From assembly GCA_050942895.1 (NCBI GenBank), contig JBMNOE010000002.1:130710-194709 (forward strand): 64,000 bases of DNA. The letters run 5' to 3'. This document shows positions 55,527-57,466 of the stretch, piece after piece. Made by a program: the position numbers and the translations under genes. The notes below the pieces were generated by a model. That model saw nothing but the letters and a program-made list of their open reading frames with translations, made no database searches and was not told the origin of the DNA. Every line of letters begins with the position of its first letter. Positions within the stretch are counted from its first letter, which is position 1. The DNA comes from Christensenellales bacterium. GTDB taxonomy: Bacteria; Bacillota; Clostridia; Christensenellales; UBA1750.

Positions 55527-57194
55527 ATGAGCAGAAATTATCCGCATTATGAAGTTATAGAATATGATACAATCCCCCAGATGGTGGAGGCCTTCAAGGG
55601 TAAAAACGGCAATTACGGCTCCGCCAGAGCATTGGTTTTCTATGACAACCAGGGAAATGAATATACCTACAACTATTCGCGCTTGCACGGCGATGTGCGC
55701 GCCCTTGCAAACGGCTTGATCGCCAGGGGGCTTTCCGGCAAGCATATCGCCCTTGCCAGCGAAAACAGATATGAATGGATGGTGGCGTTCCTTGCCATCG
55801 CATGCAGCGGCAGCGTTGCTATTTGCCTTGATGTCGAGCAAAAGGGCGAGGTCATCTGGGATATGATCGCCAAGGGCGACGGCCAGATTCTTTTCTGTTC
55901 CCCTCTTGTGGCAGAGCATCTGGCAGAGAAAAGGCTGCCCCTTGTCTGCTTCAGCGGCTATGGCAAAATTCCCGGCGAATACATCTCTTTTAGCGACATG
56001 CTTGTCCGGGGGGCCGATTTCGAATCTGAAAACCCCTCCGCCCTAGATGATGTCGCGATCGAAAGAGACACTCCGGCGGCCATCTTCTACACATCAGGCA
56101 CCACCAGCTCATCCAAACCCGTGGTGCTCAGCCATTATAATATAATGTATAATGCTTGCCACGCCCAGCAGCTTGTTACCCTTGGCGGCAGCATGTTCAC
56201 ATCTTTGCCCTTTTACCACACCTATTCACTGGTTGCCGGCGTCTTGGACATGCTCTCCCAAGGGGGCGTCGTCGGCGCAAACGGCAGCTTTAAGTATATC
56301 TTCAGAGATATACTCCTCTTTAAGCCCGTGACACTTTTTGCCGTTCCCCTGTTGGTGGACACAATCGCCCGCTATGTCCGCACCGGCGAGGAAAAGAAGG
56401 GAATCGCTAAAAAGGCGGATATGGCCGTGGCCCGGTACAGAAAGCTTTCCCGCTTCCTGAAAAGCCCGCGCACGATGGATCATCCAGGCGTTAAGGAGGT
56501 GCTGGGCGAATCCGTGAAGATAATCATCAGCGGCGGCGCCCACCTCAGCGAGGAGACTGCCATGAGGCTTAGCGCTTACGGCCTTTTGATCATACAGGGC
56601 TACGGCATCACCGAGTGCAGCCCGCTTATAAGCGTCAACCGCAACGAGTTCAACAAGATCGGCTCCGTGGGTCAGGTCATTCCGGGGATGCAGGTGAGGA
56701 TTGAAGATGGCGAGATATGCGTCAAAGGCCCCTCCGTTTCATCCGGCTATTATAAAAACGAGGAATACACCGCCCTGGCCTTCAAGGACGGCTGGTTCAT
56801 GACAGGCGATATCGGCTATCTGGATAAAGATGGCTTCCTTTACATCAACGGCAGGAAGAAGTCTCTCATCGTTTTCAGCAACGGAAAAAAGATCTCCCCG
56901 GAGGAGATAGAGATCAAGCTGATGGAATGCCCCTATGTGAAGGAAGTGGTGGCTTACGGCGCCAGCAGCGGCCAGTCCGCCGATGATGTGAAGCTGGCGG
57001 TGATCGTTCACCCCAACCCGGAAAAGATTGTCGGCATGCAGCCCTACGAGGTGCTGCACAGCATCCAAAATGAAGTGGACCGCATGAATCTGGGGCAGCC
57101 CCCTTTCAGGAAGATACAGATAGTCAAGCTGTCCGAGACGCCCTTTGAGAGAACGTCTACCAAGAAAATCAAACGCGAGGGAATAGTCCAATGA
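55527..57194 (+). CDS. AMP-dependent long-chain fatty-acid ligase (FadD/FAAL-like), the likely acyl-starter activating enzyme.
   Basis: AMP-binding motifs YTSGTTSSSKP and GYGITE...TGDIGYLDKDGFLYINGRKKS. Confidence 0.8.
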   Translation: MSRNYPHYEVIEYDTIPQMVEAFKGKNGNYGSARALVFYDNQGNEYTYNYSRLHGDVRALANGLIARGLSGKHIALASENRYEWMVAFLAIACSGSVAICLDVEQKGEVIWDMIAKGDGQILFCSPLVAEHLAEKRLPLVCFSGYGKIPGEYISFSDMLVRGADFESENPSALDDVAIERDTPAAIFYTSGTTSSSKPVVLSHYNIMYNACHAQQLVTLGGSMFTSLPFYHTYSLVAGVLDMLSQGGVVGANGSFKYIFRDILLFKPVTLFAVPLLVDTIARYVRTGEEKKGIAKKADMAVARYRKLSRFLKSPRTMDHPGVKEVLGESVKIIISGGAHLSEETAMRLSAYGLLIIQGYGITECSPLISVNRNEFNKIGSVGQVIPGMQVRIEDGEICVKGPSVSSGYYKNEEYTALAFKDGWFMTGDIGYLDKDGFLYINGRKKSLIVFSNGKKISPEEIEIKLMECPYVKEVVAYGASSGQSADDVKLAVIVHPNPEKIVGMQPYEVLHSIQNEVDRMNLGQPPFRKIQIVKLSETPFERTSTKKIKREGIVQ

Positions 57195-57211
57195 ACAGAG
57201 GAGGCCAAAGA

Positions 57212-57466
57212 ATGGATAAAAATGAAAAAAGCCTGTTTGATGCCATACAGGCCATAGTCTACGATGTGGCGGGCGTCAGAAATGTAACTATGGACACGGA
57301 CCTTGTCAGGGATCTTTCCCTTAACTCCTTCGATGTGGCCAGCCTGCTGAATGCAGTGGAGGGGCATTTTGATATGGAGATCCCCATCAGGGATGTGTGG
57401 AGCCTGAACCAGGTGAAGGATATCGTTGAATATCTTTCTGTAAGGCTGAAGCAAAGAAAAAAATAG
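57212..57466 (+). CDS. Acyl carrier protein.
   Basis: 84 aa with the DLSLNSFD phosphopantetheine-attachment motif. AGAGGAGG RBS. Overlaps the ligase stop. Confidence 0.75.
   Translation: MDKNEKSLFDAIQAIVYDVAGVRNVTMDTDLVRDLSLNSFDVASLLNAVEGHFDMEIPIRDVWSLNQVKDIVEYLSVRLKQRKK

What the first reader, a model, noticed from the sequence alone, without database searches (positions are those of the whole stretch)
55527..57466. Lipo-initiation set: acyl-AMP/CoA ligase and dedicated ACP, coupled to an N-terminal starter C domain
The NRPS begins with a condensation domain (HHIITDAWS at about 45144) rather than an A domain. The ligase gene (YTSGTTSSSKP AMP-binding motif) overlaps by ATGA the start of an 84-aa ACP (DLSLNSFD). 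This combination is the usual route for loading a fatty acyl chain that the starter C domain transfers onto residue 1, so the predicted product is an N-acyl dipeptide.
Basis: inference. Interest (0 to 1): 0.55.

Follow-up and report, generated by a model that had tools for sequence, protein, structure and literature searches.

The report
Acyl ligase and carrier for lipopeptide-aldehyde synthetase
The two genes are a real acid-activating enzyme and its small carrier protein; they travel with a two-module peptide synthetase as part of a widespread cassette in gut Clostridia and most likely supply the acyl cap of an N-acyl dipeptide aldehyde, which is a known kind of pathway rather than a new one.

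Summary
Window 55527-57194 encodes an intact 555-aa adenylate-forming ligase. Window 57212-57466 (or 57191-57466) encodes an ACP with an invariant Ser. The NRPS at 44730-52064 starts with a C domain (HHIITDAWS at 45144).

1. The NRPS is C-A-T-C-A-T-R, so the expected product is an N-acyl dipeptide aldehyde.
2. The ligase is not a FAAL. It lacks the FAAL-specific insertion, and in sequence and fold it resembles CoA ligases. It carries a helical insert and an AMP-binding_C_3 domain.
3. The ATGA-overlapping start gives 91 aa. The 84-aa ACP starts at 57212, behind a GGAGG.

Comparative genomics is the main evidence. Every relative of the ligase and of the kinase that I looked up sits in the same cassette: NRPS, 7TM histidine kinase, HD-GYP response regulator, ligase, ACP and PPTase. 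In a set seeded on the R domain, a free ligase of this lineage accompanies 21 of 28 C-first synthetases and 0 of 35 others.

Whether C1 belongs to the Cstarter clade remains inconclusive, and the acyl substrate is unknown. Relatives occur in Clostridium leptum, C. scindens and Blautia producta. This fits the gut dipeptide-aldehyde NRPS family already described, so I file it as a new member of a known kind.

The parts
44042..44638 (-). 4'-phosphopantetheinyl transferase (198 aa), transcribed divergently from the NRPS. It would convert the ACP and the two T domains to their holo forms.
   Evidence: Pfam ACPS PF01648 E=1.1e-12. It scores 106 bits against the PPTase that follows the ACP in L003. 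The same divergent position is seen in L010 and L092. In most other loci the PPTase follows the ACP.
44730..52064 (+). NRPS of 2444 aa with domains C1-A1-T1-C2-A2-T2-R. C1 covers about residues 6-445 and carries HHIITDAWS at residue 139. C2 carries HHIISDGIS. R carries TGATGYLGAH and YCKSK.
   Evidence: Pfam finds Condensation x2, AMP-binding x2, PP-binding x2 and NAD_binding_4. NCBIfam finds a thioester-reductase domain. Sequence. It is the only NRPS in the window.
52061..53896 (+). Sensor histidine kinase (HisKA_7TM, PAS, HisKA, HATPase). Its start overlaps the NRPS stop (ATGA).
   Evidence: Pfam; junction sequence. It is conserved directly after the NRPS in the cassette.
53931..55481 (+). 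Response regulator with REC, DUF3369 and HD-GYP domains (HD at 369, HHE at 422, GYP at 430). No DNA-binding domain was detected.
   Evidence: Pfam and NCBIfam; motifs.
55527..57194 (+). Adenylate-forming carboxylic acid ligase (555 aa). It is FACL/ACSL-like, has a helical insert at about residues 274-326 and has no FAAL-specific insertion.
57212..57466 (+). Free-standing acyl carrier protein (84 aa from ATG 57212, or 91 aa if ATG 57191 is used). The phosphopantetheine Ser lies in DLSLNSFD.
   Evidence: Pfam PP-binding, and NCBIfam ACP families below their cut-offs. The Ser is invariant in 23 orthologues. It is the only free carrier protein of this family in the window.

Best explanation
The ligase adenylates a carboxylic acid, most likely a fatty acid of unknown chain length, and transfers it to the phosphopantetheine arm of the adjacent dedicated ACP. 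The ACP is made holo by the cluster's own PPTase. The N-terminal C1 domain of the NRPS then takes the acyl-S-ACP as donor and N-acylates amino acid 1 on T1. C2 adds amino acid 2, and the terminal R domain releases the chain reductively as an N-acyl dipeptide aldehyde. The N-acyl cap would block the free amine; from memory of the dipeptide-aldehyde literature, an uncapped product cyclises spontaneously to a pyrazinone. What is shown here: the genes, the domains, the intact motifs, the operon layout, the absence of the FAAL insertion, and the tight co-inheritance of ligase, ACP and C-first NRPS. What is inferred: ACP rather than CoA as the acceptor, C1 using acyl-ACP as donor, the fatty nature of the acid, and the aldehyde product.
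For: (1) All catalytic motifs are intact. The ligase has A3, A5, A7, A8 and the A10 Lys547. The ACP Ser is invariant. In C1 the second His and the Asp of HHxxxD are invariant in 25 orthologues. T1 has GGDSL, T2 has GGTSL, and R has the GxxGxxG and YxxxK motifs.
(2) The five genes from the NRPS to the ACP lie on one strand, with a 4-nt overlap and gaps of 34, 45 and 17 nt.
(3) Six ligase homologues at 89-41% identity and three kinase homologues were looked up (twelve loci, some of them repeat samplings of the same cassette). All lie in the same cassette of C-A-T-C-A-T-R, HK, RR, ligase and ACP, with or without a PPTase, and the flanking genes differ from locus to locus.
(4) In 80 loci seeded only on the R domain, a free ligase of this lineage is present in 21 of 28 C1-first loci and 0 of 35 other NRPS-R loci. 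The latter include the A-T-C-A-T-R loci of Paenibacillus (Fisher p=4e-11, not corrected for shared ancestry).
(5) Ligase followed by ACP stays adjacent in three different arrangements: after HK-RR, upstream of the NRPS, and directly after the NRPS without HK-RR.
(6) The same ligase lineage occurs fused in one ORF to a T and an R domain in 14 loci. This shows that the lineage is used to load carrier proteins.
(7) No other NRPS gene and no other carrier protein of this family lies in the 64-kb window or upstream of C1 in the relatives, so there is no unrecognised upstream module.
Against: The ligase is FACL-like and lacks the FAAL insertion, so on architecture alone it could make acyl-CoA. Three related loci (L021, L045, L025) have the ligase but no detectable adjacent ACP. 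Seven C1-first loci show no ligase within the sequence held; some of these have short flanks or broken reading frames. C1 does not group clearly with solved starter C domains. The substrate is not assignable: the best NCBIfam hit is a long-chain-fatty-acid-CoA ligase family at 200 bits against a cut-off of 476, and the nearest solved structures are oxalyl-CoA and malonyl-CoA synthetases, luciferases and 4-coumarate ligases. No chemistry was tested.
Confidence: 0.7

Rival explanations
1. CoA route. The ligase is a true acyl-CoA synthetase, and C1 takes acyl-CoA directly, as I recall is reported for the surfactin starter C domain. The ACP would then be dispensable, or serve another step.
For: The architecture is FACL-like with no FAAL insertion. 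The closest sequences and folds are CoA ligases, and the AF2 model superposes best on thioester-forming conformations. Some relatives have the ligase without an adjacent ACP.
Against: The ACP follows the ligase in 17 of the 20 complete R-seeded loci that have a free ligase, across three gene orders, usually overlapping it or separated by fewer than 35 nt (PPTase between them in L028). LIG-T-R fusions show that this lineage loads carrier proteins in cis. A carrier-loading enzyme without the FAAL insertion is also known: V. harveyi AasS appears among the PDB matches at 129 bits (its biochemistry is from memory).
Confidence: 0.13
2. The machinery works as in the best explanation, but the starter is not an ordinary fatty acid. 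It could be a short, branched, keto, dicarboxylic or aryl acid.
For: No curated ligase family cut-off is reached. The top solved relatives activate oxalate, malonate, o-succinylbenzoate, luciferin and coumarate as well as fatty acids.
Against: The highest NCBIfam scores are for long-chain-fatty-acid-CoA ligase families, and one source names an 86%-identical homologue 'long-chain acyl-CoA synthetase'. Aryl-acid ligases of the DhbE/EntE type score far lower. The literature on this pathway class describes N-acyl tails.
Confidence: 0.15
3. The ligase and ACP are housekeeping lipid-metabolism genes, for example for uptake of exogenous fatty acids, and lie next to the NRPS only by chance.
For: A fatty acid kinase gene (FakA) and a lipid-kinase-like gene lie nearby in the window.
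Against: All nine look-ups of relatives land in the NRPS cassette, with unrelated flanks each time. The pair is absent from all 35 non-C1-first loci. The FakA-Asp23-RecG genes lie beyond the PPTase gene, outside the cassette, and are not seen beside it in the other loci examined.
Confidence: 0.02

Closest known systems
Gut-commensal dipeptide aldehyde NRPS clusters (Guo et al. 2017, Cell 168:517) and the Ruminococcus bromii rup/ruminopeptin cluster (Schneider & Balskus 2018, Tetrahedron 74:3215)
   Same: These are dimodular NRPSs ending in an R domain, from gut Clostridia. The products are described as dipeptide aldehydes, some of them N-acylated. Ligase orthologues of the window's cassette occur in Clostridium leptum DSM 753 and C. 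scindens, and the whole cassette occurs in Blautia producta DSM 2950.
   Different: The window comes from a different lineage; the closest genome is a Christensenellales MAG (ligase 89% identical, R-domain region 74%). Neither primary paper is held in the library. I could therefore not check whether they describe the ligase, ACP, kinase and regulator genes, or whether any of their clusters is orthologous to this one. That link rests partly on memory.
Daptomycin/A54145/CDA-type lipoinitiation: FAAL (DptE), free-standing ACP (DptF) and a specialised first C domain
   Same: The three-part logic is the same: a stand-alone adenylating enzyme, a stand-alone ACP and an N-terminal C domain (PMC9113097 abstract).
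   Different: The ligase here lacks the FAAL-specific insertion and is not close to FAAL structures. The assembly line has only two modules and ends in a reductase rather than a cyclising thioesterase.
Surfactin-type starter C domains that use acyl-CoA
   Same: An N-terminal C domain N-acylates residue 1.
   Different: From memory, that system has no dedicated ligase-ACP pair. The solved SrfAA starter C domain is a more distant match to C1 than several elongation C domains.
AusA/PznA aureusimine synthetase (A-T-C-A-T-R)
   Same: It is a dimodular NRPS with reductive release to a dipeptide aldehyde. NCBIfam's AusA model is the best whole-protein hit, at 1082 bits over residues 791-2376.
   Different: AusA has no N-terminal C domain, no ligase and no ACP. 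The score is far below the equivalog cut-off of 2500. A-first relatives in Paenibacillus lack the ligase, the ACP and the two-component pair.
Acyl-ACP synthetases without a FAAL insertion (Vibrio harveyi AasS, PDB 8hsy)
   Same: This is a FACL-like ANL enzyme that loads a free ACP, which is the proposed activity here.
   Different: Sequence similarity is only distant (129 bits to the family profile, ranks 48-49 of 56 matches). AasS serves lipid metabolism, not an NRPS.

Membership tests
FAAL (fatty acyl-AMP ligase, CDD cd05931) | A FAAL-specific insertion of about 20 aa or more in the N-terminal domain, between subdomains B and C. In MsFadD32 this is around residues 368-372, between A5 at about 346 and the A7 Asp469 (PMC4667280, PMC12820801). 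| tested here: not met
   From GYGITE to the A7 Asp is 70 aa here, against 123 aa from Ala346 to Asp469 in MsFadD32. The stretch from SGGA to A8 aligns end to end with CoA ligases whose spans are 10-18 aa longer (FadD13 287-429 against query 5-136). EcFAAL aligns only from A6 onward. All 32 lineage members aligned have 37-43 aa between A5 and A6. The AF2 model shows no extra hairpin there.
FAAL (fatty acyl-AMP ligase, CDD cd05931) | Closest sequence and structure relatives are FAALs. | tested here: not met
   EcFAAL 3pbk ranks 36th with the single sequence and 52nd with the family profile. There is no FAAL among the top 50 Foldseek PDB matches.
FAAL (fatty acyl-AMP ligase, CDD cd05931) | Rejects CoA and transfers the acyl group to holo-ACP. 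| not testable with these tools
   This needs enzyme assays. The FAAL-specific helix and pocket residues (PMC8460268) were not compared residue by residue.
NRPS lipoinitiation set (stand-alone ligase, stand-alone ACP, N-terminal C domain) | The first NRPS domain is a C domain with an intact HHxxxD motif, and there is no upstream module. | tested here: met
   C1 occupies about residues 6-445 with HHIITDAWS. The second His and the Asp are invariant in 25 orthologues. There is no other NRPS gene in the window or upstream of C1 in the relatives.
NRPS lipoinitiation set (stand-alone ligase, stand-alone ACP, N-terminal C domain) | The ligase and ACP are encoded together in the cluster, and the ACP has a phosphopantetheinylation Ser. 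| tested here: met
   They lie in the same operon, 17 nt apart or overlapping by 4 nt. The Ser is invariant. A PPTase gene is in the cluster.
NRPS lipoinitiation set (stand-alone ligase, stand-alone ACP, N-terminal C domain) | The ligase-ACP pair is inherited together with C-first synthetases and not with A-first ones. | tested here: met
   21 of 28 against 0 of 35, p=4e-11, uncorrected for phylogeny.
NRPS lipoinitiation set (stand-alone ligase, stand-alone ACP, N-terminal C domain) | C1 falls in the Cstarter phylogenetic clade. | tested here: inconclusive
   The C1 family profile scores BacC 226, TycC6 (LCL) 208, RzmA-Cs (starter) 174, PvdL C1 171 and SrfAA-Cs 150 bits. The C2 profile scores TycC6 451 and RzmA-Cs 140. 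C2 is therefore clearly LCL, while C1 is a separate divergent group. No reference-set phylogeny (NaPDoS) could be run.
NRPS lipoinitiation set (stand-alone ligase, stand-alone ACP, N-terminal C domain) | The product carries an N-acyl group derived from the ligase substrate. | not testable with these tools
   This needs expression and mass spectrometry.
Gut Clostridia dipeptide-aldehyde NRPS clusters | A dimodular NRPS with a terminal thioester reductase. | tested here: met
   NAD_binding_4 E=1.9e-45, and a TIGR01746 thioester-reductase domain hit (177 bits, below its 213-bit cut-off), at residues 2086-2379.
Gut Clostridia dipeptide-aldehyde NRPS clusters | Orthologous clusters occur in gut Clostridia. 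| tested here: met
   The cassette occurs in Blautia producta DSM 2950. Ligase orthologues occur in C. leptum DSM 753 and C. scindens. Many gut and rumen MAGs of Lachnospiraceae, Oscillospiraceae and Christensenellales carry it. Identity with the published clusters themselves was not checked, because the papers are not held.
ACSL-like long-chain acyl-CoA synthetases (Pfam AMP-binding plus AMP-binding_C_3) | A C-terminal domain matching PF23562 above its cut-off. | tested here: met
   35.1 bits against a cut-off of 20.8, at residues 446-553. All of the best 120 homologues but one carry the same pair of domains.
ACSL-like long-chain acyl-CoA synthetases (Pfam AMP-binding plus AMP-binding_C_3) | Forms acyl-CoA thioesters. 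| not testable with these tools
   This needs enzyme assays. The gene context argues for ACP as the acceptor.

The most novel reading that the evidence does not exclude
The ligase-ACP pair is one arm of a self-contained six-gene signalling cassette. A lipo-dipeptide aldehyde is built by an insertion-less, ACSL-like, carrier-loading ligase, a dedicated ACP and the NRPS. That product, or a derivative, is the ligand of the co-translated 7TM histidine kinase. The kinase's partner regulator hydrolyses c-di-GMP through its HD-GYP domain. This would be a Clostridial counterpart of the Xanthomonas Rpf system as I recall it (fatty-acid-derived signal, RpfC kinase, RpfG HD-GYP regulator, RpfB acyl ligase). 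In that reading the acyl chain chosen by the ligase would set signal identity, and the protease-inhibitor view of these aldehydes would be incomplete.
Probability: 0.15. Interest if true: 0.7.

Novelty: new member of a known kind. Interest (0 to 1): 0.33.

Why it matters
N-acyl dipeptide aldehydes from gut Clostridia are reported protease inhibitors, and the acyl cap may be what keeps the aldehyde from cyclising. Knowing which genes supply that cap tells anyone expressing these clusters that the ligase, the ACP and the PPTase must be included. It also tells them that the ligase should be tested as an ACP-loading enzyme even though it looks like a CoA ligase. More broadly, it shows that lipoinitiation is not restricted to FAAL-type enzymes. 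It also shows that automated searches keyed on the FAAL insertion, such as cd05931, would be expected to miss this widespread lineage.

Tried and rejected
1. I used PDB alignment coordinates, motif spacing and published residue numbers instead.
2. NaPDoS-style clade assignment of C1 was not possible. Profile searches against solved C domains gave no clean answer.
3. The primary papers (Guo 2017, PMC5302092; Schneider & Balskus 2018) are not held. Several full-text searches found only reviews. A search for the embedded HD-GYP two-component pair found nothing relevant.
4. The consensus scan found no terminator-like hairpin in the ACP-YebC spacer and gave no clear NRPS promoter, so the operon boundaries rest on gene spacing and synteny.
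5. I considered and rejected the idea that the ligase-ACP pair is housekeeping lipid metabolism linked to the nearby FakA. The FakA-Asp23-RecG genes are an unrelated flank.
6. I did not derive Stachelhaus codes for A1 and A2, so the two amino acids are not predicted.
7. Chain-length prediction for the ligase was not attempted, for lack of a pocket-analysis tool.
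Full report
**What is in the sequence**

The interval given holds two real genes on the + strand. Window 55527-57194 encodes a 555-aa adenylate-forming enzyme with all core motifs: YTSGTTSSSKP at 188, SGGA at 335, GYGITE at 358, GEICVKG at 395, TGD at 426, GRKK at 442 and KKIKR at 546. Pfam gives AMP-binding at E=1.9e-54, plus the C-terminal domain AMP-binding_C_3.

Window 57191/57212-57466 encodes a small carrier protein: PP-binding at E=2.8e-9, with NCBIfam ACP families as the best hits. The Ser in DLSLNSFD is invariant in 23 orthologues.

It gives a 91-aa product. Orthologues are called at 76-81 aa in most loci (100 aa in L001), and conservation begins near that Met.

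The NRPS (44730-52064, 2444 aa) begins with a condensation domain whose HHIITDAWS starts at nt 45144. Its full architecture is C-A-T-C-A-T-R.

**Gene neighbourhood**

The ligase does not directly follow the NRPS. Two genes lie between them:
- A 7TM/PAS histidine kinase at 52061-53896, whose start overlaps the NRPS stop.
- A REC-DUF3369-HD-GYP response regulator at 53931-55481, with HD, HHE and GYP intact.

A PPTase gene (44042-44638, minus strand) sits divergently upstream of the NRPS. The cluster therefore runs from 44042 to 57466. Its flanks look like general cellular functions: RecG, FakA and Asp23 upstream, and YebC, a lipid-kinase-like gene and an M24 peptidase downstream. The 64-kb window holds no other NRPS gene, no other ligase of this lineage and no other carrier protein of this family.

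**Is the ligase-ACP pair tied to the NRPS?**

This was the key question, and comparative genomics answers it.
- The ligase has 1939 homologues below 1e-20 among the 8000 candidates scored, and all of the best 120 but one carry the same two Pfam domains.
- I looked up six of them, at 89, 56, 46, 45, 42 and 41% identity. Every locus carries the same cassette: NRPS(C-A-T-C-A-T-R), 7TM kinase, HD-GYP regulator, ligase and ACP. The cassette is usually followed by a PPTase, and the flanking genes are unrelated from locus to locus.
- Three look-ups seeded on the kinase instead gave the same cassette. There the NRPS N-terminus is fully visible, and no other NRPS gene lies upstream.

To remove the bias of seeding on the ligase, I scanned one genome per species with an alignment of the T2-R region and annotated the 80 best loci with the window's own domains.
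- A free ligase of this lineage is present in 21 of 28 loci whose NRPS starts with a C1-type domain.
- It is present in 0 of 35 other NRPS-R loci, including the A-T-C-A-T-R loci of Paenibacillus (p=4e-11, not corrected for shared ancestry).
- The ligase-then-ACP pair persists through three gene orders: after kinase-regulator (the window type), upstream of the NRPS (L024, L026, L028, L050, L070), and directly after the NRPS with no kinase or regulator (L042, L088 Enterocloster bolteae).
- Counter-examples exist. L021, L045 and L025 have the ligase but no detectable ACP next to it. Seven C1-first loci show no ligase in the sequence held.

**FAAL or FACL?**

Published FadD32 numbering places the FAAL-specific insertion between N-terminal subdomains B and C, around residues 368-372. 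That lies between A5 (about 346) and the A7 Asp469, a span of 123 residues (PMC4667280). The equivalent span here is 70 residues.

The 136-aa stretch from SGGA to A8 aligns end to end with CoA ligases whose spans are 10-18 residues longer, for example FadD13 287-429. The E. coli FAAL aligns only from A6 onward. All 32 lineage members I aligned have 37-43 residues between A5 and A6.

With the family profile, CoA ligases and luciferases score 150-190 bits, FadD13 172, V. harveyi acyl-ACP synthetase 129 and EcFAAL 120.

An AlphaFold2 model (pLDDT 85.6) shows no extra hairpin in that region. It shows three helices at 274-326, an insert of about 35-40 aa relative to ordinary CoA ligases that nearly all of the lineage shares. 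Its 50 best Foldseek matches in the PDB are all CoA ligases, luciferases or related non-FAAL adenylate-forming enzymes, with the best superpositions on thioester-forming conformations.

The enzyme is therefore not a FAAL. This lowers the claim 'it is a FAAL'. It does not lower the claim 'it loads the ACP'. Fourteen loci encode the same ligase lineage fused in a single ORF to a T domain and an R domain, so this lineage is demonstrably used as a carrier-protein loader.

**Is C1 a starter domain?**

By position and context, yes. It is the first domain, its catalytic His and Asp are invariant, and there is no upstream module anywhere.

By clade, the result is inconclusive. The C2 family profile is unmistakably LCL (TycC6 451 bits, RzmA starter C 140). 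The C1 family profile is flat: BacC 226, TycC6 208, RzmA-Cs 174, PvdL C1 171, SrfAA-Cs 150. C1 is its own divergent group, with a family-wide HHxxxDAWS motif that has Ala where Gly is usual.

**Mechanism**

The most likely sequence of events is as follows:
1. The ligase adenylates a carboxylic acid and loads it on the holo-ACP.
2. C1 transfers the acyl group to amino acid 1 on T1.
3. C2 adds amino acid 2.
4. R releases an N-acyl dipeptide aldehyde.

I put this at about 0.7. The main rival (0.13) is that the ligase makes acyl-CoA and C1 takes it directly. A variant of the main model (0.15) is that the acid is not an ordinary fatty acid. The ligase reaches no curated family cut-off, and its nearest solved relatives activate oxalate, malonate, coumarate and luciferin as well as fatty acids. 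An unrelated housekeeping role is essentially excluded.

**Comparison with what is known**

Reviews in the library describe a widespread class of gut-commensal NRPSs that make dipeptide aldehydes. [quoted passage not shown]

The cassette occurs in Blautia producta DSM 2950, and its ligase has orthologues in Clostridium leptum DSM 753 and C. scindens. It also occurs in many gut and rumen MAGs of Lachnospiraceae, Oscillospiraceae and Christensenellales, and once in an Eggerthellales MAG. The window's nearest genome is a Christensenellales MAG.

The two primary papers are not held, so I could not check whether they already describe the ligase, ACP, kinase and regulator genes. From memory, I believe the N-acyl prediction for the rup cluster rested on the same genes. 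The three-part lipoinitiation logic itself is textbook (daptomycin DptE/DptF/first C domain; PMC9113097).

I therefore file this as a new member of a known kind. It has one feature that departs from the canonical FAAL route, the insertion-less ACSL-like ligase, and one feature that deserves separate attention, the kinase and HD-GYP regulator embedded in the operon.

**Scores**

Interest is 0.33. The reading is mostly correct and useful for anyone expressing these clusters, but a specialist would not be surprised by it. The most novel reading not excluded is that the cassette is a signalling unit, in which the lipo-dipeptide aldehyde is sensed by its own kinase and controls c-di-GMP. I give that a probability of about 0.15.

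Noticed in passing
window 52061-55481: A 7TM/PAS histidine kinase, whose start overlaps the NRPS stop, and a REC-DUF3369-HD-GYP response regulator are embedded between the NRPS and the ligase. No DNA-binding output was detected, and the HD, HHE and GYP motifs are intact. The kinase is present in 22 of 28 C1-first NRPS loci and 0 of 35 others, and the regulator follows it in most. Three kinase-seeded look-ups all land in the cassette. No paper on it was found in the library.
   Followed up: partly
L022, L027, L029-L031, L033-L037, L039, L040 (about 8300-11300 in each; 3513-6340 in L036); L047 2449-6555; L054 8111-12220: These are single-ORF fusions of the same ligase lineage to a T domain and a thioester reductase (LIG-T-R, about 1000 aa), mostly in Lachnospiraceae MAGs. 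There is no C domain and no kinase or regulator. They look like carboxylic-acid-reductase-type enzymes built on this ligase.
   Followed up: partly
window 44042-44638 (-): The cluster's PPTase is divergently upstream of the NRPS here, in the nearest MAG (L010) and in L092. In most other loci it follows the ACP.
   Followed up: yes
window 45144-45170; alignment A2: The C1 family has HHxxxDAWS, with Ala replacing the usual Gly of HHxxxDG, in most of the 25 orthologues. C2 keeps HHIISDGxS.
   Followed up: partly
L021 5269-6705 (-), L045 5300-6766 (-), L025 13804-15399: These are variant loci in which the ligase accompanies single-module C-A-T-R synthetases but no adjacent ACP is detectable. In L021 the next genes encode HtrA-like proteases. 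This leaves room for a CoA-dependent or ACP-in-trans route in some relatives.
   Followed up: partly
window 39662-43799 (-) and 57601-61008: The cluster lies between RecG, FakA (fatty acid kinase) and Asp23 on one side, and YebC, a YegS-type lipid kinase and an M24 peptidase on the other. YebC also follows the ACP in the nearest MAG (L001). The flanks differ in all other loci, which suggests the cassette is mobile between genomes.
   Followed up: partly
cluster of P0012: The 90%-identity cluster reported for ligase P0012 (549 aa) lists 504-aa HD-domain response regulators of Blautia as its members. This looks like a clustering or look-up artefact, or a fused gene call. I did not resolve it.
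   Followed up: no
L092 (hydrocarbon metagenome contig): The complete cassette also occurs in a contig from a hydrocarbon-associated metagenome, so it is not confined to gut or rumen samples.
   Followed up: no
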